DNA from: Bilabrum cf. latius
Lineage: Eukaryota
Assembly (NCBI GenBank): GCA_965178125.1
Contig: OZ237741.1
Location: forward strand, 186,001-250,000
Length of the DNA: 64,000 nt
Direction: 5' to 3'
The notes under the pieces: generated by a model
Databases searched by the model: none
What the model was told of the DNA's origin: nothing
Seen by the model: only the letters and a program-made list of their open reading frames with translations
Made by a program: the position numbers and the translations under genes
In this document: in pieces, positions 1-64,000 of the stretch
Layout of the letters: each line of letters opens with the position of its first letter
Numbering within the stretch: position 1 is the first letter of the stretch

Positions 1-1928
1 GAACAAGCCGCCAGGAGGGCAGACTTGCCCGTCCCTCCCGGCCCCACGACCACCAGGGGCTTGTTCCCTGGCACAGGAGCCGCTGCAGGAGCGCCCCACG
101 CGCAAACGCCCGGCACAAGCCCCCCTTCGCCTCGGGCCAGAGCGCCTGTCGCGCTGCGCATGAACTGCAGCAGCGCCCCTTGTTCCCTGGCTCTGCCCAC
201 CAGCACCTGCGCCCTGCCTCTGGCAAACTGGTGCGCGCCGATCACGTCAGCTGTGACCCGAGGCAGAGCTGCCTTGACTGCCGCTTGCCATGCCGATAGT
301 CGCTGGGCGGGTACTACCCTGGGCATCGATGCAGCCCCACGCTCCGCCAATGCGCTCACCGGCTGGTCCCCCTCGGACTTGGGCCCTGCCACCTGCCCGC
401 CCCCGTCCCACCACTCGCCCGCCTGTCTCCTCTGCTCTGTCCCAGTGAGGTGCCCCAGCACCCCCGGGGCCACTCCCGCCTCTCTCGCCCGCCTGCCCAC
501 CTCTTCTCGCAGAGCTCCTTCCAGGCTTACGGCCATGTCGGCGGCCAGCTGCAGCAGATACCCGGGGTGCGAGTCCACTCCCACGGTCACCGGAGGCAAG
601 TCACCTGCCCCTGCACCGGCACCTGCACCTGACCCTGACCCTGCACCTGCACTCGCCAACTCTTTGTCCTATTCCCCACTCTCTGCTTGCTTCTCCGCCT
701 GATCTTTCAGATACCGCTCGCTTCCACGCTCTGGCTGTCCAAACTGCACCTCATACCGGTAGATGCAGTCATGGTCGAACAGCCCGCCGACCCCTCGGTC
801 TGGGTACCCCTGCACGATGGCGCGCAGGACGGCCAGCCGAGCACTGGAGTCCTCTCGGTCCGCTGCCCCGTCCACGAATCCTCGGCCTGTGGCGGTGTCC
901 TTCCCCGTCAGCGTGTCACCGTTGGTCAGTGTCCTCACGAATGCGAAGCGGCGGCGGGCGTCCCCCTCGGATCCGGGGCCAGAGGCCGCATTCTCGGCCG
1001 ACTGCACCTGCGCTGCCCGTATGACCTCTTGCTCGGTCACGGAGCTCTCCCAGACGGTCTCCAGCGCCTCCAAGTCGGGCGGGATCACCCGTGCTTGTCC
1101 TGGCCGCAGGGGGTGGGGGCCGACAGCTGGGAGGGCACCGGCGGTGGGCCGGCCCTGGTGGATCCGCAGAGAGGAGCGCACGCTTGCCAGCAGCGCGCAC
1201 TGACGGTCCCACCAACGATTGCTCTCCGCGCGAAAGTGAGACACATCGGATCCAGTGGCATCTTCCTGGGCCGGTTCTGCAGCTACCAGTGCCGCGACTA
1301 GTGCCGAGTACTCCTTCATCGTGCGCAGGCGGTACCGAGCTGGAATCACGTTCGACTCCAGCACATAGCACGCGTCAAGATTTTCTAGAGCATCGGGACT
1401 GTCTCTGCACGCAGCCTTCGTACGGCGCATTTGTGGCAGCGATAGCTCTGGAGGCGGTGCTCGATACCCCGACCGCGCAGTCTAAAAGAACAGAAAGTAA
1501 GGGCCCGTGCTCGTCTACCTACACTTGTCAATCTACTCAAGGCACAAATTGATTGTTTGGTGATTCGCAGTGGCTTCATTCCGTATGCCCCAGCGCATGT
1601 CGCACAACAAAACGGTGAGACCCAGCGATCTTGCGGCTCTTGACAGGTAGGGCTCGACTAGCTCCATCATCGCGTGCCGTTCGCTTTTGGTGTCCACAAA
1701 CGTACTCGATGAGAATATTCGTACTACGTTCGTTGTCGGAGACGTAACGTTAGAGGCTCGTTTGCCCGCTAACCACTCTTGCGAAGCGACCGTGGTGTCC
1801 GATGCATCGGGACTGAGACCCGAATCCCGCGCCTATTGGCGCTTTTCTCGCAAGCGCTGACGAGCTTCTTCAATGGCGTGAACCCATAGTGGATCATCAA
1901 TACTATCTGGGATGCGAGCAACTCGCAT
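1..1928 (-). CDS. DUF4062 + NACHT/P-loop protein (NWD1/NWD2/TEP1-like), 3' end beyond the window; start uncertain
   Basis: One frame is interrupted only by TAG (1833, 1533, 1515, 1482, 669). It reads VRIFSSSTFVDTKSER...DMRWGI...LCLE*IDKCR*TSTGPYF, typical of the DUF4062 N-terminus. A Walker A motif KPLVVVGPGGTGKSALL lies near position 60-20. Confidence 0.8.
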
Positions 1929-2189
1929 GCTGCAAAGATATGCGTTGCCCTTCGGGGAAGCTTCCCCTTGTGAAACCGGAAGAACCGTCCGAAACCGCCG
2001 CCCAGCAGGTTCAGGTGTTCCCACTGCCGCAGACCATGGAGTCAGCGCCCGCTCATTGTCAAACCGCCGCGGCTGCTACGTCAAGTTGGCCGCCAGCTGG
2101 CACAATATTCTGCGCGCGGTTCGTCGCTGCGTTCCGGTTCCCGCCACACGGCCGTGGTAGCATGTGCAACTTGAACTCCGATGCGCCTC

Positions 2190-5100
2190 TCAACCTCTGT
2201 GTCCCAGGGCGCGCTGCAGTGCCATGCTAGCTCCAGCCGACAGGAACGGCCTGTCAACACCAGCAGAGCCGCCCCGACTGTTCCTTGCCCCCTCGCCTCC
2301 CCCATTCGCCCTAGCCCCAGCACCGCCGGACGGTTTCCCAACAGCCGACCCACCCAGCCGATTGTCCCCGTCCAACTCCCTCAGTCTCCGATCCGCGGCG
2401 CTCGCTGCCCGCCTCGTCGCTGCGGCCCTCTTCGCCCGCTGGCTCCGCAACATCGCCATGCCCTGCCCCACCAGCTCGCCCGCACCCACCCGCGGCCGAC
2501 TCCTCGTTGGAGCCCCCGTCCACCGCTCCAGAGTGCTGGACCAGGCCCCTGTCCCGTCCATCGTGCCGCTGCCTGACTTTGCCCCCGCACCCGCCGCCAG
2601 CAGCGCGTGTGCTCTGCCACTGCACAGGGTAGACACGAAGGGCCGCCTGGGTCCGTTTTGTCTGCCACCTGCAGCAGGTGAGCCCGTGCCAGCACCGGTG
2701 CCAGCACCGGTGCCAGAGCCGGAACTGCGGCCGACGAACGTTCCCCTCCCGACCTGTGGATGACTGCCACTATGCCCTTGCTGGCCGACCGATCCGGATC
2801 CAGTGCCTCGCATGGAGCCCGCTCTGCCCATCGAGCTCCCCATGAGGTCCGCGATCGGCCGGTCTTCATCGAGGTCTCTCGAAGCACCCGCGCGATCTTG
2901 CGCCGCGATTGCACCGCCTTGCGCTGCACCCGACATGGTCCGCCGCTTTTTCCACACGTTCTCCCTTGCCGCGCCCATCGACGGTGCAGCATGGCCGCTG
3001 CTGGCCGGCGGCACCCTGGCATTGCCGTGGCGACCTGTGGCAAAGTTGCCGGTATCTTCGTCATCGGCGTCGCTCCCGCTGCTTGACAGCTCGATCTCCA
3101 GTCCTCCAGACTTGCCCGACGCACCCCTACCGAAGGCCTTCCCGGCCCGACCTGCACCGCGCTACCCAGCGAGACCACGAAGGGGCGGAGATTCGGCATC
3201 GCTGCCCAACTCCACATCGTCGTGCTCCCCTTCCAAGTCGTCCTCTTCATCGGTGTGTCCTCCGCCTCTTCCCTTCCTACCCGTTTTGCCCCCCTTGTCC
3301 TTGCCCATCATTCGTTCGTACCAGCCCTTGCAGTTACGCATCGCCGCGGCTGCTGCACCGCTAGCTGCACCCGCCACCTCCCACAGCTTGCCGCCGCACT
3401 TCTCGGCCGTGCGCCAGCCTGCCAGACCCACGCTCGCAGCCTCTCTCGCAACCTAGCTTGCAGAACCCTCAATCACACCGAGCTGCACGAAGGAAGGCAC
3501 CGCCTCCGAGCCGCCCGTGCCGCCCAATTTCACGCCGGGCCCGTGTCCCGGTACCCCCAGCAAACGCCTTGCGCAGTTCTAGCACGTTTCACCGCAGCCC
3601 ACTCCGGCGTCCCCCGGGTCGTATTGCTACCCGAAATACCGAACCAGAGCCGCCCTCCTGCAGGTCTCTCTGTCTTCTGCGTATGCCTGCATCTTGCCCA
3701 GGAGGTCGACCGCCTGTGAGCTCTGCGTCCTGCTCTTGCGCTTTCCACGGCCCGACATGGTGATCAGGCGCTTCACACGGCCTACATCCTTCCGGGAGTA
3801 TAGCAGCACGCAGTGCGCCGGAAGGCCGTCCCTCCCGGCCCTCCCCGCCTCCTGGTAGTAGCCCTCGATGCTCTTGGGTACGGAGAAGTGCACCACGAAC
3901 CGGACTGTGGCCAAGTCGATGCCCATCCCGTACGCCACTGTCGCGCACACCACGTCAATGCGGCCGTGCTGCCACAGCGTCTGCACAAGTAACCGCTGCT
4001 TTGGAGTCATGCCCGCGTGGTAAAAGTCGGCCCGCAAGCCGCCCTCTTGCAGAGCTTTGGCTGCGCGCACGGTGTCGTCTCTCGATAGGCAGTACACGAT
4101 GCCGCTCCGAGCAGCCGAACCTGCTGATGCGGCGCTTGCAGCGGTCAGTACCGGCTCCACCTTGTCATCCGTGTTTCTCGCCCTGCTGGCCCCCATCTTG
4201 CGCCTGGATGACGCGGCTGCCCTTCCGAGTGGGTCCGAGGAGGCAGCGACCGGTGGCACTGTGGGTGGGATGCAGAGCATGCGGACCACTTCCGACAACT
4301 GGTGAAGGCCTTCTCCCGCCTTGTCTGGCTTGGGGAGCACTGAAAATATTAGATTGGGACGGTCAAAGCTCTGCTGGAACACCCGCGTAGGGGAAGAGGC
4401 AGGGGAGCTGCACCGGCGTGGGGGAAGCATATCCGGAGAAGACGGGGCCGCGCCGCCGCTGCTGCTGCTGCTACTGCTGCTGCTGCCGGCACGAGCTACT
4501 CGGCCAAGGGAGTGGGGTGCGGCCTCCGCACCGCGCGGGGCTCTGCCCTGCACCGTCTGCACGCCGATTTCCGGCCTCATCTTGAGGATGTCCATCACGT
4601 CCCTGCGTACCGTCTCGGTGGCGGTGGCGGTGAGGGCCATCAGGGGGACGCCAGGGAACGTTCGTCGCAGGTTCCTGAGGTCGAGGTATGCCTTGCGGAA
4701 GTCGTGGCCCCAGCGCGACACGCAGCTGCGGTGAAACGGCGGGGAGGTGTAGTGGGGGAGTGGGGGTGGGCCGACAGGTTGCTTGAAAGCATCTGACTGT
4801 GCAGGGCGGCGTACAGTGGACGAACGGGGCTAAGAAACGAGGACGGTAGCCGTTCATCATTAAAGGATGAAGAAAGGAGGGGCACCTGTGGGGGCGCAAG
4901 GCTCGGAGTGATTGCTTGGGCAGCCAATCGTCCTGCCACCCCAAACTCACTGGCACTCGTCTACCACGATTCGGGCGAGCAGGCCCCGAGAGTGTAGGTC
5001 CCCCAACGCCTCGGAGGCGGTGCTCTCTCTCGACGCGAGTTTTTCCGGGGTCACGTACAGCAGCTTCACCGTGGGGTCGTGCCCGTCCCTGCCCGCCCGG

Positions 5101-5681
5101 AAGAGCTCCCTGTAGACGGCCCTCACCTCCTCCTCGGTCTGCTCGCTCGAGAGATAGGACGTGGGGACTGAGACCTGCAAGTCTCGGAGCAAGGCCGATA
5201 CCTGGTCTTGGATGAGCGACAGCAGAGGCGAGACCACCACGGTGACCCCTCGGTCTAGCACGGCAGGGAGCTGATAGCACAGGCTCTTCCCACCACCTGT
5301 CGGCATGATGACCATTGTGTCCCAACCTTCGAGAGAAGCTGCGATCACATCTCTCTATAAGCCCCTGAAGGAACAGCCCGGGCCGTAGAAGAGCCTCTCC
5401 AGCGTATACTGCAGCAGGTCTGGTTCCGCTGCCGCTGCCTCGCCCCGCAGAGCAGTGCCAGTATCACCCCCATGTCCTCTTGCATCGCCTGCGGGGCGAT
5501 TGCTACTACTCTTAGCGATACGTTGGCCTGCTGAGGCTGATTGGTCTTCAACTTGGTGACCCAGCATGCTGTCCTCAGCTTCGGATACAGCGTCGTCGTC
5601 GCTCGATTCCAGAATGGCGATGCGTGGACTCTGCCTCTGCTTCCTCGCATCTCGGGAGGCGCTACCGAAAAAGGATTTCAT
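2190..5681 (-). CDS. RecQ family DNA helicase (BLM/Sgs1-like) with low-complexity C-terminal tail
   Basis: Motifs FRGL*RDVI (Q-motif), [28 protein letters not shown] across intron 4726-4950, [17 protein letters not shown] and Zn-binding CRR...C..C*NC. In-frame TAG at 5355, 3627, 3579, 3453, 3162. Ends TGA at 2190. Confidence 0.93.
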
Positions 5682-6973: not shown

Positions 6974-8798
6974 ATGCCGAAGGCAGAGAAGGGTTCTGCG
7001 AAATCTATTGCAAATAGCTGGAAGGCAAAAGGGCTGACCAAGCTCAAGTTTTATTGTCCCATCTGCTAGAAGGCCTGCAGAGATGCCAATGGCTTCAAGT
7101 GCCACAGCGAATCAGAAAGTCACCTGAAGCAGATGAAAATCTTCATGCAGAATGCTGGCGGGAAGATTTCAGGGTTTTCTAAGCAGGTAAGACTTGGTTG
7201 TCGCGTAATCATCGGCTACCTGCAACCTATATGCTGCTACCAACACACGCCGCTGCTCTGGTTGTAATATCTCTGCGCCGCAGTTTGAAGACGGTTTCTT
7301 GCGCGTGTTGAGGCGATTATTTGGCACCAGACCAGTAGATTCAAACCAAGTCTACAACGAGTACATCCGAGATCGCCACCACACGCACATGAAGGCAACC
7401 GTTTGGTCCACCTTGTCCGAGTTCATCCAGTACCTCGGCCGCACGGGCAAGTGCACGGTCGAAGAGACCGAGCGAGGCTTCACAATCCGATGGATAGAGA
7501 GAGATGCCGGCCTTTTAGCTCGGCAGGCCGCTGTAGCAGACGCGCAGAAGGAGGAAGAGGCCGCGGAAGAAGCCAGGGCCAGGGCCCTGCAGGACCTCGC
7601 ACGCATGGCGCAAGCTGCGGGCATGGAGGGCGACGGCACGGGGGTCGTGGCCGCGGCGAGGCGCAAAGCAACGGCAATCGATGCCGACGACTCGGAGCGG
7701 AAAGCTGTCAAGCTCACCAGCGCCGGGGGCAGCGGCACTGCTGCAGCAGCGTCGGGAGGTGCCAGGCTGGTACACGAACAGGACCAGGAGGCCGCTGTGG
7801 ATGGGCTGCTGGCGAGCCTTGGTGGTGGGGGTGAGGAGGAGGAGGACGATCTGCAGCGAGGATCGGTCGGTACTGGTGCTGCACCACCCCGAGGTGCACC
7901 CCAGGGAACAACGGGGGCACTGCCAGGGTTCGGGTCCATGGCGGGGGCACAGCTGCCCTCACTGCCTCCTTCTTCGTCGTCGTCCTCGTCGTCGTCAGTC
8001 GTGCATCGAGCCTCCTCATCCTCCTCTGGATCTGCAAGTGCGCCCAAGTTCCGAGTGATATCGCTGGGCACTGATGCTGCGCCGTCTGTTCCGCTAGCGG
8101 GTGCGTCCGGTTCTCGTCCTGCCGATGCAGCAGGCGAAGGGGCAGGGGCATCGGTGCTGGGCCAGAAGCGAAGCAGAGAGGAGGCCCGCAGCGGTCCTAT
8201 CAGAGGTGCCGGTGCCGGTGCTGGTGCCGGTACTGGCAGCAGCAGCGCGGCACCTCGGGTTGGCGGCATCGGCGCGGCTGGCTCGGTGATCCAGGTGGTG
8301 CCAGTACCCCCAGGGGGCGAGGCCTGGGTTCTGCGTGGGCTGGTGGTGCGAGTGGTGGACAAAGCGGCGGGAGGAGGGGTCTGGTTCCGCAAGAAGGGGA
8401 CAGTGTCTAAAGTGGACATGATGAGCGCGCCCGGAACCGGAGCCGGTGCTGCAACGGATGAAAGCGTCGACCCATTGGCTGAGGTGGAGCTGCAGCACGG
8501 CCTCGGGGTTGCGCAGCTGAGGCAATCGCAGCTGGAGACCCTGCTGGCCCGTCCCGGGGGTGCGGTTCGAGTCGTGAGGGGTGAGTGGGTGGGAGTGCGG
8601 GGGACCGTCCACGCGGTCAGCGCGGATGGCTCCAGCTTGGACGTGCTAATCACGGAAGGAGGGCCCGTTGGTGCGGTGCTGAGGGGTTTGGGCCCGGACG
8701 ATGTCTGCAAGCGGGACGTCGAGTGGGAGGCCCGGCGAGCAGAAAAAAAGAGCAAGAAGAAGAAGAAAAGTAAATCTAAAAGGGCGAGAATTGAATGA
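6974..8798 (+). CDS. KIN17: KIN17 DNA/RNA-binding protein
   Basis: MPKAEKGSAKSIANSWKAKGLTKLKFYCPIC*KACRDANGFKCH (TAG 7067-7069). Intron 7187-7283. Kin17-mid VYNEYIRDRHHTHMKATVW and C-terminal KOW-like QSQLETLL. Ends TGA. Confidence 0.95.
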
Positions 8799-47400: not shown

Positions 47401-48296
47401 ACCAGCGCAGCGTTGTTCCGCACGACCTCTCCCTCGCCGCGCGCTCGCGCGGCGCCAGTTCCGCTACCCTCGCGAGGCTCCTCGCCGGGAGCCTGCCCGC
47501 TGGGTGAGCTGCGTGCGAGCGCGGCTGCAATGTCCGGGCCGATCTGCCCGGTGCCATCAGTGGGGCTGCTTCGCAACTGGGACCATCGTCTGCTCGGCGT
47601 GCGACCGTTTGTCGAGTCTTGCAGCTGCTGCACTGAGACGACTGAGTTTCGAGGCATCGATCGAGTGCTGAGCGACGCTTCCCGCCCGAAGGACTGCATT
47701 TCAAACAGGGAGGGAGGCCTGCGCATTTCACCTCCTTGCTGGTCTACTAATTCCGATCGGTCGGGCCGCGAAGGCCGCTGCGGAGGCGGCGGCCTGCCTT
47801 GCTGCGGCTGGTTGCCTGCGTCAGTGCCGTCCGGGTTCCGGTCGCCGCGTCCGAAATCTTCTCGATCCCTGATTGAAGCGACTTGTCGTCTCTTTGCAAA
47901 CTATCTTGGCAACGATCCAGCTGTGTCCTGCGTCCGGGACCGCCCCCTCTGCTCCTCGAAACTGCTATGCAAGGCGTCCGAACCTGAGCTCTCTCGATGC
48001 TCGCCAAGTCGACCGGAAGCTGCGCTCAAGCGGCCGCTCTCATGCGACAGCATTCGCCCCCCACGAGATTCCGTTGAGCCTCGCCTGCTGTCGCGTGACG
48101 ACGAACTCCCAAAGCGTCCTAAGCGCTGCTCGGGACGACCGTTTACGTCCACGAAGTCCCGCGTCCCAGCAATACGCAAGGAGCCCCGCCGTCTTCTCTC
48201 TTCCGCTGCAGATAAATAGAACAATGGAATATCAGGGGGCAGCCACTGGGCGAGTTGCAAGGGGCGCAGTGCCACGCAAATATCGCAACTACTCAC
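44478..48296 (-). CDS. Voltage-gated potassium channel (6TM) with long disordered termini; 5' end uncertain
   Basis: S4 LRLPRILRGLKLVR and pore WYWAVISLSTVGFGDVTP. Same-frame ORFs joined by TAG at 47901, 45618, 45339, 44751. Ends TAA 44478. Confidence 0.88.
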
Positions 48297-51500: not shown

Positions 51501-51908
51501 TGCGCTATCCTTGAGCGGTACGATGCTGCGCTCCCTTGAGCGATCCGCGTGTTTGTGCAATACTCGTATTGGACATGTTTGGATGGTTCCCATTCTATTT
51601 CGTTCCTGGCAGCGTTGGGGGCTGTGCCTGCTTGTGTTCGTGGGTAGTAGCCTGGTCGCTACGTCGCTTAGGCTGAGAGCTGCCACTTTCCCCGCGTTTT
51701 CTACTTGGAGAAGTCCTTTTTGGGATGCTAGTATCGACATCCATTGCTAGCAGGCGCTGGATTTCTGCCCGCTTGCTGGCCTGCGTGCGATTAATCGGTA
51801 TGAGGTCACGTTGCGATGAATCGGTCGACGAATTTGAAAGAGGCGATTTATAACAGAGACTTATGAACGCACTAGAAACTACCGCCTCAAAGCAGCCTTA
51901 TCCGCCAT
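48577..51908 (-). CDS. CEP131: Centrosomal protein CEP131/AZI1-like
   Basis: R*LAFVDRLLGDKKAL...EKKRKEEW...ERTARAIEPEVRRLVAKH matches the recalled CEP131 core. Probable intron 51781-51872. TAG at 51879, 51595, 51505, 50710, 50638, 50164, 50050, 48910. Ends TGA. Confidence 0.78.
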
Positions 51909-52139: not shown

Positions 52140-54461
52140 ATGAGCGATCCATTTGGACGAGGAAGGAAAGACGATGAGAAGTGAGTCACCCCCATCCAGA
52201 TATACTATTATTGTACCATCGTCCACGAGCAGCTGCTTCAACCGCCCGACAAAAAAGCAAGCACGCGGCTTGCCTACCTGATTCTCGCCGAGCCAACTCG
52301 CAGGAAACAAAGAGCTAAGCTTGGGGCCGGTAGTGGACAGAGGCGACGATTCATGCCGAGGCCCTAGCGCCCACCGGCTTAGGCTGCGTAGGAAGCGTCC
52401 GGTTCTTCGGGATCCGCTGGTAGGTCTGGTGCTAGGGGCCGCGGAGGCTCCCGGGATAGGGGCCGAGGCCGAGGCCGGGGCAGGGGCCGCGGGGGCGGCT
52501 TCGCGGAAGCTCGGGCACTGCTATCGCAGGCAACTCCCGCCTTTACAGCGAAGGGTGCCGGCGCCGGAGTGGGTGGCGTGGTTCCCAGCACGACAGGCAC
52601 GGCGCCGAACCCTCGGCTGGCCCCCATCGTGAGGGGCTCCTCCTCAGGTGGCAGGCAGGGGGGCTCTTCTTCCTCGTCTGCGAGCGGCGACAAGAAGGAC
52701 GGGTCCAAGGGGATGCCTTTCTCTGAGGATGCCAGCCTGGACCAGCTGGTGCGGGCGCGCAAGAGTTCCACCGCGAGTGGGGGGGGGGCCTCCCGCGGCA
52801 GCAGGGGAAGCAGCGGGGGGCGGGCGCGGGGCAAGGGCAGCAAGCGAGCGGCTGCACTCGGGATGGATGACAGCGACAGCGACGGGTCCGATCTGCGCAT
52901 GCCGGGAGAGGGCGGGGCAGGACCGGGGGCCGCCGAGATGGATGGCGAGCAGTAGGCTGCGGGGGCGGGGGCGGCGCCCAGGGAACAGCTGCCCCCCTGG
53001 CCCCCGGAGTTTGACCCCAGTGGAACCGACACGCACGTCCCCCTGTCCCTCCCGTTTTATCCAGGCAGGGACGCGCTGGAGAGGGCGAGGGTGCAAGGCC
53101 TCGCTCCCATCGGCACTGGGGGTGCGGGTGCACCGGCAGGAGCGGGTGCGGGTGCGGGTGCGGGCGCGGGCGGGCGGGCGGATTCGGGACCGCCGCTGGG
53201 CTCCAGGCCCGGGGCCGCCTTCGGGCGGACCATCTCTGCCAGCAGCGGATTCTCGGGGTCCTCCATCCCAGGCGGAGGTTCCGCATCCGGCGGTGCCGCG
53301 CAGCTGGCCCCGCCGGGCATGCGCGCCCGCAGCTCTAGCGTAAGTAGCGTGACCTCTGTGGCCTCCCACCGGGCAGAGTCGCTCAAGTCCGAGGCCGCGA
53401 GGCTGGCCATCCAAGGGAATGTCCCGGCGGCCACGGCCTTTTCCGCGGCAGCGTCAGCGGCGGCCCGCAGCGCCGGCGCGGCCCCTTCTCTGCCCGCACC
53501 CACCCACCTTGCCGACAGGCTGAGGGTGGCCGCGGGTCTGGCCAGGCGCACAGGCAAGACCCTGCACCGGGCCGAAACTGCCGCCCTCCTCAGCCAAAGA
53601 GGTTCCGCACGCGCCGCGGCGAGTGCGCGGCGCCCTGGTTCCGCGACGGACGGAACCCCTGGCCCGGAGCACCTGGACCGCAAGGTGTCGGACCCGTCGA
53701 CCTTCCCCCTTGACGAGGTCCCCTTGTTCCTCATGCAGCTGCCCACCAGGCTGCCCATGAGGTCGCCGGACTCGTCGGGGATGGGCGCGCAGGGTCAGGG
53801 GCAGGGGCAGGAAGCCTCGGCCCGGGCCGAGACCCAGGACGAGGCGCAGAAACGCGTGTCGGAGCGGCTGGCAGCGCAGCACAGCGCGCCGGGAGGGGTG
53901 GGGGATGGGCTGCGGGGCCTGGAGCCGGGGAGGGTGGGTAAGCTGCAGCTGCACCGGAGCGGCAAGGTGACCCTGAAGATCGGATCGGTTGTTCTCCAAG
54001 TGTCGGAGGGGGCTGGGATGCGGTCCGCGTGGGAGGCAGTGGTGCTGGGGCCCGAGGGAGCTGTAAAGGACGGGAAAGTGGGAAAGGGGAAGGGCAGCAG
54101 CAAGGGAAAGCACAGCCTCGAGGCGATTGCGCGGCGCCAGGCCAAGGCAGACGCGGCTGCGGAGGCCATGCTGGGAGGAGGGGGTGGTGCCATGGCCGAC
54201 TCCAGCGAGGACGAAGAGGACGAGGAAGCAGCCGCCGCAATCGCTGCGGCGCAGGATGACGAGGATGATGAGGAGGAGAAGCTCCGGTACATGCGACTTG
54301 GTGCGGTGAGCGGCCGATTGGTCGCGAGTTTGGACGTGGACAGCATGCTGCCCCAGTGGCTGAGATCCAGGGATAGGCAGGAGGAGGCCGTGGCCATGCA
54401 GGCGGCCACGCGCATCGCCGCCGCGAATTCGGCGGCGCAGGTGGCTGCCCCCTTTGTATAA
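52140..54461 (+). CDS. POLR3D: RNA polymerase III subunit RPC4
   Basis: LFLMQLPTRLP and GRVGKLQLHRSGKVTLKIGSVVLQVSEG. Intron 52181-52303. TAG at 52365, 52380, 52389, 52953. Ends TAA. Confidence 0.85.
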
Positions 54462-54594: not shown

Positions 54595-57500
54595 ATGCCG
54601 GCGACCACCCGGAAAAGGCGCCGGGAGAGTATTGATGAAGAAGCTGCGCAAGGCCAAGACATTCAAGCGGCCGGCTCGGCGTCCTCTTCTGGTGCATCCC
54701 ATGGAGGCCCCAAAGAGGACCCAGCTGCGAAGAAGCGCAGAGTAGAAAGCACCGGCAAAGGGGCCGCGGCGCTTGCTAAAGCAAAGGCAATGGCTGCCGC
54801 AAAGGCTAAGGCAGCTGCCAAGGCTAAAGCTATGGCGGCTGCCAAGGCCAAGGCCGCGGCCGCCAAGGCTGCCACAGCCAGCAAGGCAGCTGTGCCGGCA
54901 CCAGCAGCGGCAGGGCCAGGCGAAACTGCAGCTAGCCTGTCACTTGGAGGCATTTCGGCTGCGGGAGCAGCAGCAGCAGTGGCGCAGCAGCTCGGGATGT
55001 CATCCGGTGCGGCGGCCGCCGTAGAGGATGCTGCGGAGCGCCGCCGTCGGAACGCCGCGAAGCGCTCCGTTCTGCTTCCGGACGACAGCCAGCAGCGGCG
55101 TCGAAAGGGAGGCGTAGTGGAGCGCGCCGAACGAGCGGCCCGGCGGCGTGGCCCAAATCCTTACCTGGCGCACGAGGACGAGGAGGCTGGTACCCGCGGA
55201 GAGCGAGCAGCCGAGCAGAGCGAAAGCCAGGCAGCCAGCAAAGGGGACGGAGGCAAGCAAGGAGGCGGCGGTGTGCTGGATCTGATCGATTTGGGCGAGC
55301 AGGGCGAGCAGGCCGACGCGGAGCAGCTCATCCCCGGCGTGGACCCCCGGCTGCAGGGCGGAGCAGCTGCTTCGAGCAGGAGGCGAGCACGGCTGCTCGC
55401 CCGCGGGGCCTTTGGCGGCCGCAAGACGGACTGGGAGAAGGAGGGGCAGGAGCTCAGGCAGAAGCTGGCGGAAAGGGCGGACGCTCGAAGGCAGCAGGCG
55501 GCGGTTGGATCGGGCATCAACCCGGAGATGCACAGGGCGGACGACCTGGCGCTCTCCGGCGGAACCGACGGCGCCGCGCAGCGGAACACCCCGTTCGCCC
55601 GGGCCGTCGCCGAGGCGGCCGCCCGGCTTTCCGGCTCCGAGTTCTCGTGGCTGGAGGATTCGGAATCGGGTGCCGCGGGCAGGGAGCATGCCGCCGCCGT
55701 GGCAGCCGAGCTGCCGCTGGCCTCACGCCGGCTGCCGCTGGCAGGCAGGCTCGCCAAATCGGAGGGCGATCTAGCGGGCGGCAAGCCTCGGGGTGGTGAC
55801 CCCGCCGCAGGGGGTGCCGCGGGGGGTGTCCCCAGGGTGGGGGTGGAGTGGTGGGATGATGCCCTTCTTAACCCCCGCCTGAGGAAGGCCAGGACGGAGG
55901 CGAGGAAGGCGAGAGCGAGCGCGGGATCGATTCCCGGTGCGGAGTACTCGCAGGCATTTTTTGGGGAGGAGGAAGCTCCAGCTGCGGCGCTGGGCGATGG
56001 GGGTGCAGGGGCTCCCACGTGGCTGGGGGGACTGAGCCTACCCGGAGCGGCTGCTGCGGCGGCCATCTGGACGGGGCAGGCCGGGGTGGGGGTGTCGGCG
56101 CAAGAGCAGATGGGCGAGGGCGAGGGCGAGGGCGAGGGTGAGGAGGGCGAGGAGGAGGTGGATGGGACTGGCAACGGTGCCGCGCGCATGGAAGACGGCG
56201 ATGACAGCGATAGTGGGAGCGGGTCCGACTCGGAGTCAGAAAGTGGGGCCGACCCGTCCTCCGGCGAGTCGGGCGGCGGCGTCGCTCCGGAGCACCTGCT
56301 CGGTGCTCGCCTTCCCCGGCGCACCGGCGCGCTGCTGGAGCGCGCGCTGGAGTTCTGGAAGCTCCGCATGCGCACCTTTGATCTGATCCAGCACCCGCCC
56401 ATGGTCAAAGCGGCGGCCGCTGCGCAGGCCTCCGGCCTGTCAGGCGGAGTAGCAGCCCTGCAGCACCCACCCGAGTACAAGCTGCGCAAGACCAAGGAGG
56501 AGAGGCGCAAGGCCAGGAAGCAGGCAAGGGCCGCCAAGAGGGAAGAGACCCGCATGCTGCTCAAGCTGGGCGTGGTCAAGCCCCCGGATCCTAAGCTAAA
56601 GCTCTCCAACTTCATGCGTGTGCTGCAGCAGGACGCCTACCTGGACCCCACCGCGGCAGAGGCCCGGGCGAGGGCGCAGATGCAGAGCAGGCACGAAGCA
56701 CACATGGCCGCCAATGAGGCGAGGAGGGTGACCCCAGCGGAGAGGAGGGAGAAGAAGAGGAGAAAGTTCCTCGTGCTCAAGCAGGGCGACAGCCTGCAGC
56801 GGGTGGCTGTGAGGCTGCCCGCGCTGGCGCACCCAAAGCACAGGTTTAAGCTCGACGCGAGTGCCAGGCAGTGCGGCGTGGGTGGCGTCTGTCTCATGGT
56901 GCACGGGTGGGTGGGGAAGAGAGGAACCAACCAGGAATCGGAATCAGGGAGCTCGGGGCAGGCGGCCATGGAGGACGGCGATGGCGCGGATGGCGCTGCT
57001 GCTGCTACTTCCGGGGGCTAGCCACAGTCGCAGGGAACAACGGGCGAGACCCGGCCGGTGGGAGCCGCCGTGCTCGTGGTAGCAGAGGGCACCCCCCAGG
57101 GGATCACCAAGTTCGTGAACGTTCTTCGGAACCAGGTGGACTGGGCCATGGGGCTGCGGGCGCTGGAGCGATTGGGCCAGCACGCCGCCGTGCACGGCCG
57201 GCGGATCCGGCGAACAGCAGGCAGCGGCGAGGACGACGACGGTGGGGATGATAGACAAAGAGAAGGCGGTGATGAGGCAGGAGAAGGGGGCGCGGGTGAC
57301 GACGCGGCAAGGCCCGGCGATGGCCTGCTGGTGGAGCTGACCCCAGCTGCCCTCGGGGGCGGGCCAGGCTAGGCCGAGGGGAGCCTTGGGGGGGGCGGTC
57401 CCCTGGTGGGGGGCGATGCCGAGGGGATGGATCTGCTGGGCGATCTCGCGGGTCTCGGGGGGAACAGTGGGGCTGGTGGGTCGTCTTCCTCGTCGTCGTC

Positions 57501-58170
57501 GTCGCAAGGCCTCGGCGCCCGCGTGGACGTGCTGTGGCGCGGAGACGTCGCCGAGAGGGTGTTTGCGCCCCTGGCGGTGGAGACGATCGAGCTGGAGGAC
57601 GGGGAGGATGAGGAGGGAGAGGGGGGCGGTGGGCCAGGAGCTGCAGAGGGGAGAGGCACGGTGCGCAGGCGGTGGCCCGTGTACGGCATGTCGTTCCACC
57701 AGTGCCCTGGGCTGAGGGAGGCAGAGGCTCTGTCGGTCCGGCTGGGGCACCTGCACGGGGCGGGGGGGAACAGGGATCCGATGGGCTCCGCTGTGGAAGC
57801 CGCGCGGCGACAGGGTGCACTGCAAGGCGGCGCATCGGCGAAGCAGGCGGGTGGACTTGCGACCAAAGCGCAGGCCGCCAGGGAGAGGGCCACTGGCGTG
57901 GAGCTCAGGGGGTACTGGCGGCTGGCAGCCTCGGGGGCTTCGTTCGAGATCAAGGAGCGGCTGGGGATGCTGGGGTTCGGTGGCCCTGCGGTGAGCGGGG
58001 CGGGCTTGGGGGGCGGTGCGCTCGTCACACTAGAGGGGTGGGAGCTGCGGCGACCTCGGAAAGTGGCCGAGGACGGCAACTCGAAGGGGGAGGGTGGTGA
58101 AGAAGGGCGGGGCCTGACGGAGCGCGAGGCAGCGGTGCGATTTGCGCCCAGGAAGGTGGCGAGAACTTGA
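54595..58170 (+). CDS. PRPF3: U4/U6 snRNP protein Prp3
   Basis: VEWWD, LIQHP, TKEERRKAR, PPDPKLKLSNFMRVL, DPTAAE, HPKHRFKLDASARQ, VVAEGTPQGITKF...VDW, VLWRG. TAG at 57019 and 57370 lie inside the C-terminal domain. Ends TGA. Confidence 0.9.
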
Positions 58171-59868: not shown

Positions 59869-60725
59869 ATGGACAGAATATTTGGAAGAGCCAGGCCAGC
59901 CGGCCCTGCTGCCCCAAAGGAACCGGAGCCGTCGCTGACCGACGTACTCGGGTCAAACACGGAACGTGTCAGGCTGCTGGACAAGAAGATTCAAGATTGC
60001 CAGCGAGAGGCAAGTTAGTTGGCAAAATAGGCAAAGGCTGCAGGGGCACGAAACCCTGCAGCGGCTCGATCGCTGAAAGGCAGAGCTATGCAGGCGTTGA
60101 AGCGAAGAAAGATGTACGAACAGCAAAGGAATATGATAAGCGCCACCGGGTTCAAGTTGGAAGCCACCAGCTTTGCAATTGAGAATGCGAAAGAGACGCA
60201 CAAGACCGTGCAAGCCATGAAAAGTGCCCATACCGTGAGTTGCTAGGTTCTGCTCGTACTCCCCAAGCGACAGGTCCCGACACGCTGCGAACGAATGGTG
60301 ATTGTAAAAATCCTTACATGCAAACATCGCAGACGCTCAAGACCGAGCAGGCCAAGATATCCCTGGACGACCTGGAAGACCTGCAGGACGACATGGAGGA
60401 CCTGCTCGCAGACGCCAGCGAGGTGAATGAAATCATGGGGAGGGACTTCACCCAGGTGGCGGGGCTGGACGGTGTAGACGACGCCGAGCTGGAGGCGGAG
60501 CTCGCTGGACTGGAGGACATGGACATGGGAGAGCTGGAGGGCGAGCTGGACATGGGCGGGGAAGTGGGCATGCCCACAGCGGCGGGGATGCCGGCGCCCG
60601 CCCCAGCGGCCGGGCTGCCAACCGGAGCAACGACGGGCCTGCCCGCAGCTCCTAGCGCACAGCCAGTAGCCGCCGGAGGCGGTGCTGGGGGCGTGGATGA
60701 GTACGGCGCCCCGTTGACTGTGTGA
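59869..60725 (+). CDS. CHMP5: ESCRT-III Snf7-family protein (CHMP5/Vps60-like)
   Basis: MDRIFGR...PSLTD...LDKKI...ALKRRKMYEQQR, LEDLQDDMEDLL..ASEVNEIMGR, DDAELEAEL, VDEYG. TAG at 60016 and 60028. Intron 60235-60332. Ends TGA. Confidence 0.9.
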
Positions 60726-60916: not shown

Positions 60917-61622
60917 TCACTTCCCACCTCGGCCCCGGCCCCCTCCACCACGCCCGCGCCCGCCACCACCACCACGGCCTCGCCCACGCCCCCTCCCGCG
61001 ACTGCCCTGAAACCCCTTGCGTCCCCCCTCCTCCGACGGAGGCGCTTTGGCCACCTTGGTCTGACCCTCGCCCCCCGACTCGCGGACGGCGGACCCAAGG
61101 CGAGCTGCCGCTGCACTCGTCATCTTCTTCTTGGGGATCATGCCTGCAGGCAGCGGCTATCCCGCCACAATTCCGCTGCCTTGCTGCTGCTGTCCCTGTC
61201 CTGGCCCCTGCACCTGCCCCTGCACCTGCTGGTGTTGGGCGGGCAGCGGTAGCCCCTGGGCACCCCCGGGGGGTGGCTGGAACGGCAGTGGCATGGGTCC
61301 ATGACCGGGCCCACGCGGTCCTGGGCCCATCGGCAGGCCCATGGGGGGTCCACCCATGGGGGGCCCTCCGTAGGGTCCACCGGGGTGCATCATGCCAGGG
61401 CGGGGACCAGGACCGCGGGGGCCCGGGACCATGCCAGCGTACATACCAGGGTGCATGCCTGGGCGCATGCCCATGGGATGGTGTCCCATAGGACCCCCCA
61501 TTGGGGGACCGCGCATGCCCACGGGGCCCATCGGGGGGCCATTGTTCCCTTGCGGCGGCTGTGTCCTGGTCAGCCTTGCCAGCAGAGAGGACGCAGCCGT
61601 GGGGGCTGGTGCTGGTGCTGGT

Positions 61623-61657
<35 letters not shown>

Positions 61658-64000
61658 AGCAGGAGCTGGCTCGGGTGCGGGTGCCTGGCCGGTGCCAGTC
61701 CCAGCGCCTGGTCCTGCCAGGGCCTGGTAGTACGCGTGCACGCTCGATTCCGCGGGGGCATGGCCAGGACCAGCGCCCTTGCCCTGGTCGGTCGAGCCGT
61801 GCTCGGGGCCGAGACCCAGGGCGGCTCGAAGCGCAGCAGCGGCCACTCCGCCAGTGGGCGCGGCAGAGGTGGCGGAGTGATCCGCATGGGCGCCGGGTTT
61901 CTATTCCCCTCTTCCCATGCCCTTGCTCTTGCCCTTGCTCTTGCCCTTTTCCCTGCGGGCCTCCTTAGGCTCTTTCTGCTGGTGATGCTGCCGCCCTCTA
62001 CCTCCACTTCCACCTCCGCCCCTCCCTCCGGCAGCACCACCGCGAGCTCCGCGGCGGCCCTGCCCACCAGCAGCGGGAGCCGCAGGTCGCGGCGTGGCTG
62101 CATCGCCTGCAGCCCCCAGCTCCACAGCGCCTTTGGCAGCGCCACCACCGGCCCCTGGGGCAGCTGCAGACGCGCCGCTCGCGGCAGAGTCACCGTCGAT
62201 GGCGAGCCCGCCAGAGGACTCGTCGGCTGCTTCCTTCAGGGCGGCCAGCTCCTCCTCCGCGGGCTCCTCGTCGGCCTCCAGGTCAATCACCGCAGGAAGG
62301 CAGAGCAGGACAGGCGCCTGGCCGCCGCCCGCAGTCGAAGCACCAGACTTGCCCTTGGCCCCGCCGGTCAGCGTGACCCTCGGCCCCCCCTCGCTCTCCG
62401 CGATGGTGGCACCCGACCGCACCGCGGCGGCAAACCCGCCCGTCGGCGCCGGAGCCTTGCCGTGCGGCTTCCTCCCGCCCTTGCCTCTGCCGGCCCTCCG
62501 GCCTGCCCCACCCCGGGCCTGGCCTCCTGCATCGTCAGCACCCGCCGCAGGCGGAACACCCCCGCTGTGAGTTACAGAGTCCCGGGCCGCCGTCAGGGGG
62601 AGCAGCGAGTGCCAGGGAACAAGAACTGGCTTGGGACCGGTCGCGCCGGGGATGGCCAGCCCGCCGGCCCCGGGAGACGCCGCCCCGCCGCTTTCCTCGG
62701 CCGAAGCCACGGCCTGCCCGTCGAACAGCACCTCCACGTACTTGCTCTCGGCGTGGACCGCGGTGACGATGCCTCGCTCGCCCAGCGGCCTGGCCCTGTA
62801 GGCCAGGTTGGTGACCCGGTCTCCGAGCTGGGGCCCGTCGGCCCACCACCGAGCCGCGCCCTGCGCCTTGCGGCGGCCGTCGGCCACACCATCACCACCG
62901 CCGATGTTCCCCACGGATCGCATCTCATCCCCCGCCTCGCGCCCGTACACGCCTTCCGGTGGCACGCCCTTGAGTACCATCCTGCCGGACACGGGCAGGG
63001 CACCGCCGGCGCCCGACTTGCCCTGGGCCCTGAGCTTCCCTCGCACGGATTCGGCGGCCGCCTGCGCCTTTGCCAGCATCAGGACGGCCTTGGGGGCCAG
63101 CACCTCGGACGATGCCCTGGCGAGGGGCATCTTGAAGGTGACCAGCTGCGTCAGCCAGTCCTGCGCCGCGACCATCACGCTGCCGCCGCCCATGTCCCTG
63201 ACGCCAAGCCGCCCGCGGCCCCCCGTGCGCTCGGCCAGGTCCCTGATCGAGGGGAAGGTGTTCGCGTATGCCTCCACAAGGTCGATAGCCCGCTGCGAGT
63301 ACTGCCAGCGGGTGCCTCCGTCTGGGCACTAAGAGCCGCCGTCAGACCAGTCCGGATGGAACGGCGTGCCGTTGTACATGACGGGACGGGCGTAGCCCGG
63401 AAGGAACAAGTAGTGGTTGATCTTGTGCTCCTCTTCTTCGTCGCCGCCGCGCGCCCCGTGTCCCTTGCCCCCGTGGTGCCCTCGGTGGTCCCTGCCCCCG
63501 TGGTGCCCTCGGTGGTCCCTGTCACCGCCGGTGAAGTCTTCTCTCTTGTACACCACTAGGTTCAGCCCGGCGTCGATCTTTGCATCTCCGATCCAGATGC
63601 TGCCCGACATGGCCATAAAGGCCTTCTCCGACAGACCAACCATCTTGGCTGCCACGCGCATGTCAAAGTACTGCTCGGCAAAGTGCTTCACCTGCTGCCT
63701 GCCAAACTCGGGCTCGGCGCCCGCAGCACCGACAAGGGCAACATCGAGGCCCTCCCTCGGCGCGGAAGGATCGGAAGCGGCGGGCCCGGTCTCCTGTACG
63801 GGCGAGTAGCCCACCACAACTCCGTGCGCACCTGCGAGCCTGTCCGGGGCCAGCTTGCTGAACCCCGCGCGCGCGAGCTTCTCGCTCTTGTGCCCCTCAG
63901 GACGGAGGGTCCCGCTGGTAACCTGCACGGGCCGCAACAGCACAACCCTGGACCCGACAGGCAGTCGCTGCTTGAGGGCCTTCCCCTCTGCCTCGGCAAA
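60917..64000 (-). CDS. XRN1: 5'-3' exoribonuclease XRN1, C-terminal part (5' end beyond the window)
   Basis: DAGLNL...LPGYAR...WQYSQRAIDLVEAYANTFP (D3-like) and LGDRV...PLGERGIVTAV...VEVLFD (SH3-like). TAG at 63329, 61901, 61157. RG-rich end, TGA 60917. Confidence 0.85.
63468..63521. repeat. Exact 2x27-bp tandem duplication encoding (RDHRGHHGG)2 in XRN1
   Basis: cccccgtggtgccctcggtggtccctg occurs twice. Confidence 0.9.

What the first reader, a model, noticed from the sequence alone, without database searches (positions are those of the whole stretch)
1..64000. Nuclear stop-codon reassignment: TAG is a sense codon throughout the window
Seen: about 85 in-frame TAG codons (manual count) interrupt 22 of 24 gene models. 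In each case the same frame resumes immediately, and in the recognisable genes with more of the same protein. I found no frameshift and no in-frame TAA or TGA in exons. Affected genes include normally essential ones (PheRS-alpha, PRP3, RPC4, KIN17). Inference: decay or sequencing error would not produce a single stop type, so the organism uses a variant nuclear code. Whether this lineage's code has been described cannot be judged from the window alone.
Basis: partly seen in the sequence, partly recalled or inferred. Interest (0 to 1): 0.97.

Follow-up and report, generated by a model that had tools for sequence, protein, structure and literature searches.

The report
UAG read as glutamine in alga
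This GC-rich piece of nuclear DNA from a stramenopile related to the brown-pigmented algae (ochrophytes) uses the stop codon TAG as an ordinary glutamine codon while keeping TAA and TGA as stops, a rare genetic-code change that I found no report of in this large group.

Summary
In 28 coding segments of 21 genes (16,595 codons) I count 77 in-frame TAG, 0 TAA and 0 TGA; 19 of 21 genes carry TAG. A frame caller that ignores stop codons finds 25 TAG, 1 TGA (a gene end) and 0 TAA in 5,252 called codons. The other five frames over the same DNA hold 71 TAG, 235 TGA and 23 TAA.

Spliced, polyadenylated-looking contigs from three runs of two studies keep all four PheRS TAGs unchanged.

A syntenic metagenome contig from a divergent relative (L001) also needs TAG as sense.

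TAG most likely means glutamine:
- Across orthologue alignments, TAG pairs with Gln in 8 of 25 cases, and Gln is the most likely meaning by at least 14.8 bits.
- A 94%-identical KIN17 relative has Q at the TAG site.
- One TAG sits on the RecQ Q-motif glutamine.

TAA and TGA remain stops, and orthologous C-termini swap TAA and TGA. The code therefore matches NCBI table 15.

The nearest named relatives are ochrophyte stramenopiles at 70-75% identity. Seven literature searches found no stramenopile case. The tRNA and release-factor mechanism could not be tested.

The parts
1..64000 (.). Whole window: nuclear DNA in which TAG is a sense codon. 77 in-frame TAG in 16,595 codons of 21 genes; 0 in-frame TAA or TGA.
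2193..5561 (-). RecQ/BLM-type helicase, two exon blocks (2193-4760 and 4950-5561) with 5 TAG. The codon at 5355-5357 aligns with the Q-motif glutamine of human BLM. Codons at 3627-3629 and 3579-3581 lie in the RecQ zinc-binding domain, opposite E and D of BLM.
6974..7186 (+). KIN17 first exon (zinc finger) with a TAG at 7067-7069 in the C-x-x-C-[TAG]-K-x-C-R-D motif, followed by a GT donor.
   Evidence: In 149 homologues this column is Q 78, E 48. The 94%-identical relative P0129 has Q there.
22995..23596 (+). PheRS-alpha exon 1 (N-terminal DNA-binding-fold domains) with TAG at 23046, 23175, 23310 and 23442.
   Evidence: Spliced contigs of runs X5, X6 and X7 cover 22994/22999/23004-23596 with 0 other letters.
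23597..23707 (+). GT..AG intron of PheRS-alpha (111 nt). It is removed in contigs of X5, X6 and X7 but not in X1.
   Evidence: tables 5 and 8.
23708..24695 (+). PheRS-alpha catalytic exon: GC3 0.90, no TAG, ends with TGA.
27799..30673 (-). WD40-repeat gene with 4 TAG, ending with TAA. The TAGs at 30339 and 30669 are covered by a spliced X5 contig (intron 30674-30767 removed) with 0 other letters.
34657..37440 (-). Coiled-coil gene 2 with 7 exonic TAG. The TAG at 37248 pairs with CAG in the L001 orthologue. The intron 36522-36725 (204 nt, in frame) holds one more TAG at 36657.
38434..39420 (+). DnaJ last exon: no TAG, TGA terminator. The same C-terminus ends with TAA in L001. A poly(A) loose end lies at 39652 in X5.
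44478..48296 (-). Voltage-gated-type K+/ion channel with 4 TAG. The TAG at 47903 pairs with CAG in L001. The TAA terminator (44478-44480) follows ...LAQLFLK, where L001 has TGA after the same residues.
48580..51744 (-). Coiled-coil gene 3 with 7 TAG. Its orthologue is at L001 2-1372.
59869..60231 (+). CHMP5/Vps60 first exon with TAG at 60016 and 60028.
3..1925 (-). DUF4062 plus P-loop NTPase gene with 5 TAG, three of them inside the DUF4062 domain.
10591..14685 (-). Coiled-coil gene 1 with 6 TAG.
15978..18416 (+). Leucine-rich-repeat/ankyrin-like gene LRR-A with 4 TAG.
18841..21222 (-). Paralogue LRR-B with 9 TAG. Aligned to LRR-A, its TAGs pair with TAG, CAG, TTG and other codons.
24830..27676 (-). 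Gene of unknown family with 6 TAG.
52353..54458 (+). RNA polymerase III subunit RPC4 with 4 TAG, TAA terminator.
54595..58167 (+). PRP3 splicing factor with 2 TAG, TGA terminator.
60920..64000 (-). Xrn1-type exonuclease C-terminal part, running off the window, with 3 TAG.
32152..34362 (+). Sulfatase with PAN domain, several exons, with exonic TAG at 32377 and 33970.

Best explanation
The organism reads UAG as glutamine throughout its nuclear genes, and UAA and UGA remain the only stop codons. This is the same table as NCBI code 15; the table number and name are recalled.

Shown here:
- TAG is an ordinary, fairly rare sense codon, about 0.46% of codons and 10% of presumed Gln codons.
- It is kept in spliced RNA-like contigs.
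- The trait is shared with a divergent syntenic relative.
- TAG sites turn over mainly against CAG.
- TAA and TGA end the genes.

Inferred, not shown:
- Decoding is by a tRNA-Gln whose anticodon changed from CUG to CUA, or by a Gln tRNA that reads UAG efficiently.
- The release factor eRF1 has lost UAG recognition while keeping UAA and UGA.
- The change may have been eased by the rarity of TAG as a stop in a GC-rich genome where TGA dominates (16 of 20 terminators).
For: 1. Sense use.
- 77 TAG against 0 TAA and 0 TGA in 16,595 codons of 21 genes.
- Stop-blind frame calling gives 25 TAG, 1 TGA and 0 TAA in frame, against 71, 235 and 23 out of frame.
- The flank test gives 20, 0 and 0.
- HMM and BLM alignments run through TAG in the same frame.

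2. RNA.
- Contigs of X5, X6 and X7 (studies P2 and P3) lack the intron 23597-23707 and match 22994/22999/23004-23596 with 0 other letters, so all 4 PheRS TAGs are kept.
- A spliced X5 contig also covers TAGs 30339 and 30669.
- X5 has a poly(A) loose end at 39652.
- The DNA-like run X1 shows none of the GT..AG intron joints that X5-X7 show.

3. Relative. L001 (14,141 bp, 60% G+C) holds the orthologues of five of the window's genes, in the window's order.
- Its longest frames are 1,346 and 1,181 aa with TAG as sense.
- The longest frame is 611 aa under the standard code, 611 aa with TAA as sense and 619 aa with TGA as sense.

4. Glutamine.
- Of 25 aligned TAG positions between the window and L001, the partner is Gln 8, Arg 6, Lys 2, Ala 2, Asp 2, Ser 2, His 1, Glu 1, Val 1.
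- Substitution frequencies were taken from the same alignments. Gln is best by 14.8 bits over Lys, 16.5 over His, 21.1 over Arg, 34.2 over Glu and 95.1 over Leu.
- Gln itself is conserved at 40% in these alignments.
- The KIN17 TAG column is Q in 78 and E in 48 of 149 homologues, and Q in the 94%-identical P0129.
- The RecQ TAG at 5357 aligns with the BLM Q-motif glutamine.
- Summed Pfam bits over 5 domains are Q 192.6, E 190.8, K 188.8, X 185.7 and L 184.8.
- The TAG share of Gln codons falls with GC3 (rho -0.55, p 0.0025), as expected for an A/T-richer synonymous codon.

5. TAA and TGA are stops.
- Terminators are TGA in 16 and TAA in 4 of 20 genes.
- The K-channel ends TAA in the window and TGA in L001 after the same last 8 residues. 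DnaJ ends TGA in the window and TAA in L001, also after the same last 8 residues.
- If TAA:TAG followed CAA:CAG (0.22), 17 in-frame TAA would be expected in the window and 8.6 in L001. None is seen.
Against: - No tRNA gene was found in the window or in L001, and no genome is held. The decoding tRNA and eRF1 are therefore unseen.
- Some single sites do not favour Gln.
  - The PheRS_DBD3 column is M in 58 and L in 17 of 77 homologues, and the domain scores higher with L (31.1) or K (30.3) than with Q (28.5).
  - The two RecQ zinc-domain sites score better with E (56.5 against 54.2).
  - In a nearly identical stretch of the paralogues LRR-A and LRR-B, TAG pairs with TTG.
  - In a third paralogue fragment, my reading of the translations, without an alignment, puts TAG opposite a Lys of LRR-A/B.
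- Only Q, E, L and K were tried in the Pfam score test.
- Arg is a frequent orthologue partner (6 of 25).
- The KIN17 search was run with Q at the TAG site, which biases it slightly.
- The nature of runs X5-X7 as RNA is the tool's guess. X5 is flagged 'probably DNA' and covers all bins at low depth.
- Exon limits of most genes are approximate, so a few counted TAGs may lie in in-frame introns.
- No peptide evidence.
Confidence: 0.88

Rival explanations
1. UAG is a sense codon but stands for another amino acid (Glu, Lys, Arg, His or Leu), or is decoded ambiguously.
For: - The RecQ zinc-binding sites score better with E.
- The PheRS_DBD3 site scores better with L or K.
- TAG pairs with TTG in near-identical paralogues.
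- Arg is the partner in 6 of 25 orthologue pairs.
- The KIN17 column has E in 48 of 149 homologues.
Against: - The orthologue-partner likelihood puts Lys at -14.8, His at -16.5, Arg at -21.1, Glu at -34.2 and Leu at -95.1 bits relative to Gln.
- The close relative P0129 has Q at the KIN17 site.
- The Q-motif site gains 3.6 bits with Q but 0.3 or less with E, K or L.
- 7 of the 25 partners are CAG, one transition away from TAG.
Confidence: 0.06
2. Both UAG and UAA are glutamine (the common 'ciliate/Hexamita/ulvophyte' code 6), and TAA is merely rare because the genome is GC-rich.
For: - In most known cases UAA and UAG change together (passages of PMC11687900).
- TGA is the main terminator, in 16 of 20 genes.
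- After each of the three full-length genes that end in TAA (WD40, K channel, RPC4) a TGA follows within 20 codons. After the TAA of the ankyrin fragment no stop follows within 20 codons.
Against: - There are 0 in-frame TAA where 17 (window) and 8.6 (L001) would be expected from the CAA:CAG ratio.
- TAA and TGA replace each other at the same C-terminus in two orthologue pairs, K channel and DnaJ.
- Reading TAA as sense lengthens none of the ten longest frames in the window, nor the longest in L001.
Confidence: 0.02
3. UAG has two meanings that depend on context: sense inside genes and stop at some gene ends, as in Condylostoma, karyorelicts or Blastocrithidia (for UAA).
For: - My frames were delimited by TAA and TGA, so a gene that really ends at TAG would not be noticed.
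- 8 of 20 genes have a TAG within 20 codons after their TAA or TGA terminator.
- The base after in-frame TAG is A more often than after CAG (0.26 against 0.13, p 0.03).
Against: - In the orthologue pairs whose 3' ends are present in both sequences, the proteins end together at TAA or TGA.
- TAG occurs along the whole length of genes.
- No data here require a TAG stop.
Confidence: 0.04
4. The TAGs are not translated. They would be errors of assembly, sites edited to CAG in RNA, parts of small in-frame introns, or marks of decaying pseudogenes.
For: One TAG (36657) does lie in an in-frame 204-nt intron. Exon limits of most genes are not backed by RNA.
Against: - Only one of the three stop types occurs in frame.
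- Runs of three studies hold identical letters at the sites they cover, and spliced contigs keep six TAGs.
- A divergent relative shows the same pattern at different sites.
- Essential genes are affected (PheRS-alpha, PRP3, RPC4).
Confidence: 0.01

Closest known systems
NCBI translation table 15 ('Blepharisma nuclear code'): UAG = Gln, UAA and UGA stop. The same change is reported for the fornicate Iotanema spirale and for the ciliates Protocruzia tuzeti, Hartmannula sinica and Trochilia petrani (passages of PMC11687900; table number recalled).
   Same: Only UAG is reassigned, it goes to glutamine, and UAA and UGA are kept as stops.
   Different: - The lineage differs: here a stramenopile whose nearest named relatives are ochrophytes, not a ciliate or a metamonad.
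- The genome is GC-rich (63%) with TGA as the main stop.
- The tRNA and eRF1 were not seen.
UAR = Gln codes (table 6) of many ciliates, Hexamita, Streblomastix, ulvophycean green algae and Amoeboaphelidium (passages of PMC11687900).
   Same: A stop codon is captured by glutamine. The likely route is a Gln tRNA with a changed anticodon.
   Different: UAA is not reassigned here.
UAG-only reassignments to other residues: Leu in an uncultured rhizarian and in TARA phyllopharyngean ciliates, Ser in the green alga Scotinosphaera, Glu in one oligohymenophorean ciliate (passages of PMC11687900).
   Same: UAG is uncoupled from UAA.
   Different: The amino acid differs. Leu is at -95.1, Ser at -38.1 and Glu at -34.2 bits relative to Gln in the orthologue test.
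TAG = Gln recoding in crAss-like and other phages ('code 15'; abstract of PMC9523058 as listed).
   Same: The codon table is the same.
   Different: Those are phage genomes with their own suppressor tRNA. Here it is a nuclear genome with spliceosomal introns.

Membership tests
Code with UAG = Gln only (NCBI table 15 type) | In-frame UAG inside conserved, expressed genes, with the same frame continuing | tested here: met
Code with UAG = Gln only (NCBI table 15 type) | UAG positions correspond to glutamine in relatives | tested here: met
   8 of 25 orthologue partners are Gln, and Gln is best by at least 14.8 bits. P0129 has Q. One TAG falls on the BLM Q-motif. The Pfam sum is highest for Q among Q, E, K and L. 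Some single sites disagree.
Code with UAG = Gln only (NCBI table 15 type) | UAA is still a stop | tested here: met
   0 in-frame TAA against 17 expected. TAA ends 4 of 20 genes in the window and 2 of 5 in L001. TAA and TGA are exchanged at orthologous ends.
Code with UAG = Gln only (NCBI table 15 type) | UGA is still a stop | tested here: met
   0 in-frame TGA in 16,595 codons, and TGA ends 16 of 20 genes.
Code with UAG = Gln only (NCBI table 15 type) | A tRNA-Gln able to read UAG (anticodon CUA) | not testable with these tools
   No tRNA in the window or L001; no genome is held.
Code with UAG = Gln only (NCBI table 15 type) | eRF1 altered so that UAG is no longer recognised | not testable with these tools
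   eRF1 was not met in the window or L001, and no genome is held.
UAR = Gln (table 6) | UAA used as a sense codon alongside UAG | tested here: not met
UAG = Leu (table 16 type; rhizarian, some ciliates) | UAG at conserved leucine positions | tested here: not met
   0 of 25 orthologue partners are Leu, and Leu is at -95.1 bits. Only one PheRS column (M/L) and one paralogue pair (TTG) point that way.
Ambiguous stop/sense codes (Condylostoma, karyorelicts, Blastocrithidia) | The same codon also ends genes, depending on its position | tested here: inconclusive
   Genes with orthologues end together at TAA or TGA. A TAG stop in other genes could not be excluded without 3' ends and profiling.
Ochrophyta (lineage placement) | Conserved proteins group with ochrophyte sequences | tested here: inconclusive
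   The PheRS core's best named hits are Chrysoparadoxa, diatoms, Parmales and Ectocarpus at 70-73% identity; the best unnamed hits reach 75%. In a FastTree of the top 120 hits the window sits in a clade of 10 unnamed proteins, support 0.99. The named CHMP5 hits were oomycetes in a search restricted by length. There is no rRNA, no plastid-related gene and no multigene tree.

The most novel reading that the evidence does not exclude
This is the first nuclear genetic-code change in stramenopiles. A GC-rich, ochrophyte-related lineage is known otherwise only from unnamed environmental sequences. In that lineage UAG was captured by glutamine before at least two now strongly diverged species split (45-86% protein identity between orthologues), with UAA uncoupled from UAG. 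It would be an independent origin of the rare 'UAG-only' change. It would also be a natural case in which GC pressure and TGA-dominated termination, rather than AT pressure, preceded the capture.
Probability: 0.5. Interest if true: 0.85.

Novelty: new member of a known kind. Interest (0 to 1): 0.8.

Why it matters
Nuclear code changes are rare. Cases where UAG and UAA are uncoupled are rarer still: a handful of ciliates, one fornicate, one rhizarian and one green algal genus are named in PMC11687900.

A case in a stramenopile related to ochrophytes would add an independent origin in a major, ecologically important group that is assumed to use the standard code.

It has practical consequences too:
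- Standard gene callers truncate about nine in ten genes of this organism.
- Databases would then hold only fragments. The nearest PheRS relatives in the protein collection are about 310-360 aa instead of about 500, which may be such fragments.
- Metagenome bins and phylogenomic matrices would mis-handle the lineage.

The GC-rich setting gives a test bed for codon-capture against ambiguous-intermediate models. It also offers a natural eRF1 that may discriminate UAG from UAA.

Tried and rejected
- The whole genome is not held, so there was no Codetta-type run, no tRNA survey and no eRF1.
- ARAGORN found no tRNA in the window or in L001.
- PDB sequence searches with PheRS exon 1 and the Xrn1 part gave no hits.
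- A word-index homologue search with the DUF4062 region gave nothing.
- A neighbour-residue model of TAG context was uninformative: Ile ranked best and Gln ranked 13th. It also ran on two out-of-frame segments and counted TGA as TAG, so it was dropped (corrected counts).
- My first frame-caller run used one out-of-frame training segment and was redone.
- The first row is invalid, because that gene runs off the window.
- The naive comparison of open-frame lengths in the window does not single out TAG. Reading TGA as sense also lengthens frames in this GC-rich DNA.
- The CHMP5 alignment around its two TAGs is ambiguous because of a two-residue gap. One placement puts the second TAG on a Q present in 5 of 6 homologues, but I do not count it.
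- The look-up of sequencing runs listed no holder on record as RNA; the RNA nature of X5-X7 is a guess by the tool.
- Parts of the stretch without cover in X6 and X7 are not interpreted.
- Earlier-findings look-ups gave nothing on this genome or on eukaryotic TAG recoding.
- Literature searches and term look-ups in two ochrophyte phylogenomics papers found no stramenopile nuclear code change. The look-ups were 10.1101/2024.02.03.578753 and PMC9004409; neither has an occurrence of 'genetic code' or 'UAG'.
- One search was rejected for a term format.
- Supplementary files were not consulted.

Full report
**What the window is.** The 64 kb are 63.4% G+C. They carry densely packed eukaryotic nuclear genes with few, short GT..AG introns.
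- Pfam identifies a DUF4062/NTPase gene, a RecQ/BLM-type helicase, KIN17, PheRS-alpha, a WD40 protein, a sulfatase with PAN domain, DnaJ, an ion channel, RPC4, PRP3 and the C-terminal part of Xrn1.
- The remaining genes are CHMP5 (homologues carrying PF03357), three long coiled-coil genes, two leucine-rich-repeat paralogues and genes of unknown family.
- No tRNA gene is present, and no genome is held for the window.

**Check of the observation.**
- I delimited 28 approximate coding segments of 21 genes. They hold 16,595 codons, with 77 in-frame TAG and no TAA or TGA.
- 22 of 28 segments and 19 of 21 genes carry TAG. Only DnaJ and one gene of unknown family are free of it.
Part of the difference is that some TAGs lie in stretches I could not show to be exon, and one (36657) lies in an in-frame 204-nt intron.
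- These frames were delimited by TAA and TGA, so I added two tests that do not use stops.
- Test (a): frames were called from codon usage learned on seven frames open under the standard code, with all three stops scored zero.
  - Outside the training regions, at threshold 0.15, they hold 25 TAG, 1 TGA and 0 TAA in 5,252 codons.
  - The other five frames over the same DNA hold 71 TAG, 235 TGA and 23 TAA.
  - At the loosest threshold, the six TGA in called frames lie at or beside gene ends or at an intron start.
- Test (b): stops were counted when flanked on both sides by 50 coding-like codons free of the other two stops. The result is 20 TAG, 0 TAA and 0 TGA.
- A plain comparison of open-frame lengths is not discriminating in this GC-rich DNA, because reading TGA as sense also lengthens frames.
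- An earlier version of test (a) had one mis-framed training segment and was redone.

**Are the TAGs real, and are they in mRNA?**
- Eleven public runs hold part of the stretch, but none is on record as RNA.
- I laid four runs on 22801-42800.
- Run X1 (study P1) matches the DNA without differences and may be the source. It shows none of the GT..AG intron joints that the other three runs show.
- Runs X5 and X7 (study P2) and X6 (study P3) are guessed to be RNA. They hold contigs in which introns with GT..AG ends are removed: 23597-23707, 37751-38082, 38178-38433 and, in X5, 41087-41291, 30674-30767 and 36522-36725.
- X5 has a poly(A) loose end at 39652, downstream of DnaJ, and its depth is very uneven between genes.
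- The spliced PheRS contigs of all three runs cover 22994/22999/23004-23596 with 0 other letters. All four TAGs of that exon are therefore kept.
- A spliced X5 contig also covers TAGs 30339 and 30669.
- This speaks against assembly error, U-to-C editing and removal by splicing.
- Caveats: these are assembled contigs, the tool flags X5 as 'probably DNA', and contigs drop rare variants.

**A relative with the same habit.**
- A scan of metagenome contigs with the TAG-free channel core returned one locus, L001 (14,141 bp, 60% G+C, 77% identity over the core).
- L001 is syntenic with the window. It holds, in the same order, orthologues of coiled-coil gene 3, the channel, the unknown gene with its upstream exon, DnaJ and coiled-coil gene 2.
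- Its longest frames are 1,346 and 1,181 aa when TAG is sense. The longest frame is 611 aa under the standard code, 611 aa with TAA as sense and 619 aa with TGA as sense.
- Its frames hold 24 TAG in 4,107 codons, with no TAA or TGA.
- Orthologue identities are 45-86%. The two organisms are well diverged, and the trait belongs to a lineage, not to one strain.
- None of the 25 aligned TAG positions is TAG in both sequences, so TAG codons turn over quickly.

**Which amino acid?** The orthologue test is the strongest evidence.
- Across the six alignments, the 25 TAG positions pair with Gln 8 (7 CAG, 1 CAA), Arg 6, Lys 2, Ala 2, Asp 2, Ser 2, His 1, Glu 1 and Val 1.
- I used substitution frequencies from the same alignments, in which Gln is conserved at 40% and exchanges most with Arg. 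Gln is the most likely meaning by 14.8 bits over Lys, 16.5 over His, 21.1 over Arg, 34.2 over Glu and 95.1 over Leu.

Conserved-site evidence agrees on balance.
- The TAG at 5357 aligns with the Q-motif glutamine of human BLM. The DEAD-domain score rises from 52.5 (X) to 56.1 with Q, but only to 52.7, 52.8 and 52.3 with E, K and L.
- The TAG at 7067 lies in the KIN17 zinc finger, in a column that is Q in 78 and E in 48 of 149 homologues. The closest homologue, P0129 (94% identity over 52 residues), has Q there.
- Summed over five Pfam domains holding eight TAGs, the scores are Q 192.6, E 190.8, K 188.8, X 185.7 and L 184.8. Only these four residues were tried.

Some results point against Gln.
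- The two RecQ zinc-domain sites align with E and D of BLM and score better with E.
- The PheRS_DBD3 site is M or L in 75 of 77 homologues.
- In a near-identical stretch of the two LRR paralogues, TAG pairs with TTG.

These are single non-synonymous-looking sites and do not outweigh the rest.

TAG also behaves like an A/T-richer synonymous Gln codon. It makes up 10% of presumed Gln codons, and its share falls with GC3 (rho -0.55, p 0.0025).

**TAA and TGA.**
- Of 20 genes whose 3' end is in the window, 16 end with TGA and 4 with TAA.
- The channel ends ...LAQLFLK-TAA in the window and ...LAQLFLK-TGA in L001. DnaJ ends ...VQCAQA-TGA in the window and ...VQCAQA-TAA in L001.
- If TAA were Gln with the CAA:CAG ratio, 17 in-frame TAA would be expected in the window and 8.6 in L001. 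None occurs.
- The table is thus UAG = Gln with UAA and UGA as stops, the same as NCBI table 15 (number recalled).
- Whether UAG also ends some genes could not be excluded for genes without an orthologue.

**Lineage.**
- The PheRS catalytic exon finds nothing closer than 75% identity among 5.8 billion proteins.
- The best named hits are Chrysoparadoxa, diatoms, Parmales and Ectocarpus at 70-73%.
- One KIN17 exon hit at 70% identity carries a name, from a diatom; the two best hits are unnamed.
- In a quick tree of the top 120 PheRS hits, the window falls in a clade of 10 unnamed proteins (support 0.99).
- I therefore call it a stramenopile, probably ochrophyte-related, of a lineage not represented by a named genome in these collections. 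This rests on single genes.

**Mechanism.** Shown: sense decoding of UAG as (most likely) Gln, UAA and UGA as stops, a lineage-level trait, and rapid TAG/CAG turnover. Inferred from what is known of other UAG or UAR-to-Gln organisms: a tRNA-Gln with anticodon CUA and an eRF1 that no longer recognises UAG. The dominance of TGA among terminators fits a route in which TAG stops first became rare. Neither the tRNA nor eRF1 could be looked for.

**Comparison with what is known.**
- Passages of PMC11687900 list UAG-only changes.
  - To Gln: Iotanema spirale, Protocruzia tuzeti, Hartmannula sinica and Trochilia petrani.
  - To Leu: an uncultured rhizarian and TARA ciliates.
  - To Ser: Scotinosphaera.
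  - To Glu: one ciliate.
- The same paper lists UAR = Gln in ciliates, Hexamita, Streblomastix, ulvophytes and Amoeboaphelidium.
- No stramenopile is named there.
- Seven full-text searches (listings and abstracts only) and term look-ups in two ochrophyte phylogenomics papers gave no stramenopile nuclear case.
- The library holds only open-licence papers and preprints. Supplements were not seen, and the runs date from 2025, so a report may exist elsewhere.

**Verdict.** The kind of change is known; the lineage appears to be new. Confidence in 'UAG = Gln sense codon, UAA and UGA stops' is about 0.88. I put the chance that this is an undescribed, first stramenopile case at about 0.5.

Noticed in passing
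window 15978-18416 (+), 18841-21222 (-), 21609-22196 (-): Two convergently oriented paralogues (leucine-rich repeats plus an ankyrin-like tail) are 389 of 851 columns identical overall. Their last ~190 residues are almost identical, which suggests recent gene conversion. A third, shorter copy of the tail lies next to them.
   Followed up: partly
window 36522-36725: A 204-nt intron of coiled-coil gene 2 keeps the reading frame and contains a TAG but no TAA or TGA. Without RNA it reads as coding. In-frame introns can therefore inflate counts of 'sense' TAG.
   Followed up: partly
window 32727-33507: Over the sulfatase gene, a deep X5 contig differs from the window at many sites and carries odd joints (33127>33427, 33558>33693); the two joints are also seen in X1. 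It looks like a paralogue or a second haplotype of the sulfatase.
   Followed up: no
L001 6195-9737 versus window 41294-44323: The orthologue of the window's TAG-free unknown gene carries 9 TAG in L001, and none of the 25 aligned TAG positions is shared between the two organisms. Turnover of TAG codons is fast.
   Followed up: partly
window, all coding segments: The base after in-frame TAG is A in 26% of cases, against 13% after CAG (chi-square p 0.03, n = 77 and 553). The meaning is unknown.
   Followed up: no
They lack the N-terminal domains. They may be gene calls of the same lineage cut short by TAG or by the intron.
   Followed up: no
window 9714-10211 (-): A small intron-less frame looks to me, from recall only, like a bacterial-type DUF2237 protein, with one TAG near its end. 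It was not searched against Pfam.
   Followed up: no
window 23709-24692, 38434-39417, 33427-34362: Exons with the highest GC3 (0.88-0.90) also have the deepest RNA-like cover and hold almost no TAG or CAA. This suggests selection on codon use in highly expressed genes.
   Followed up: partly
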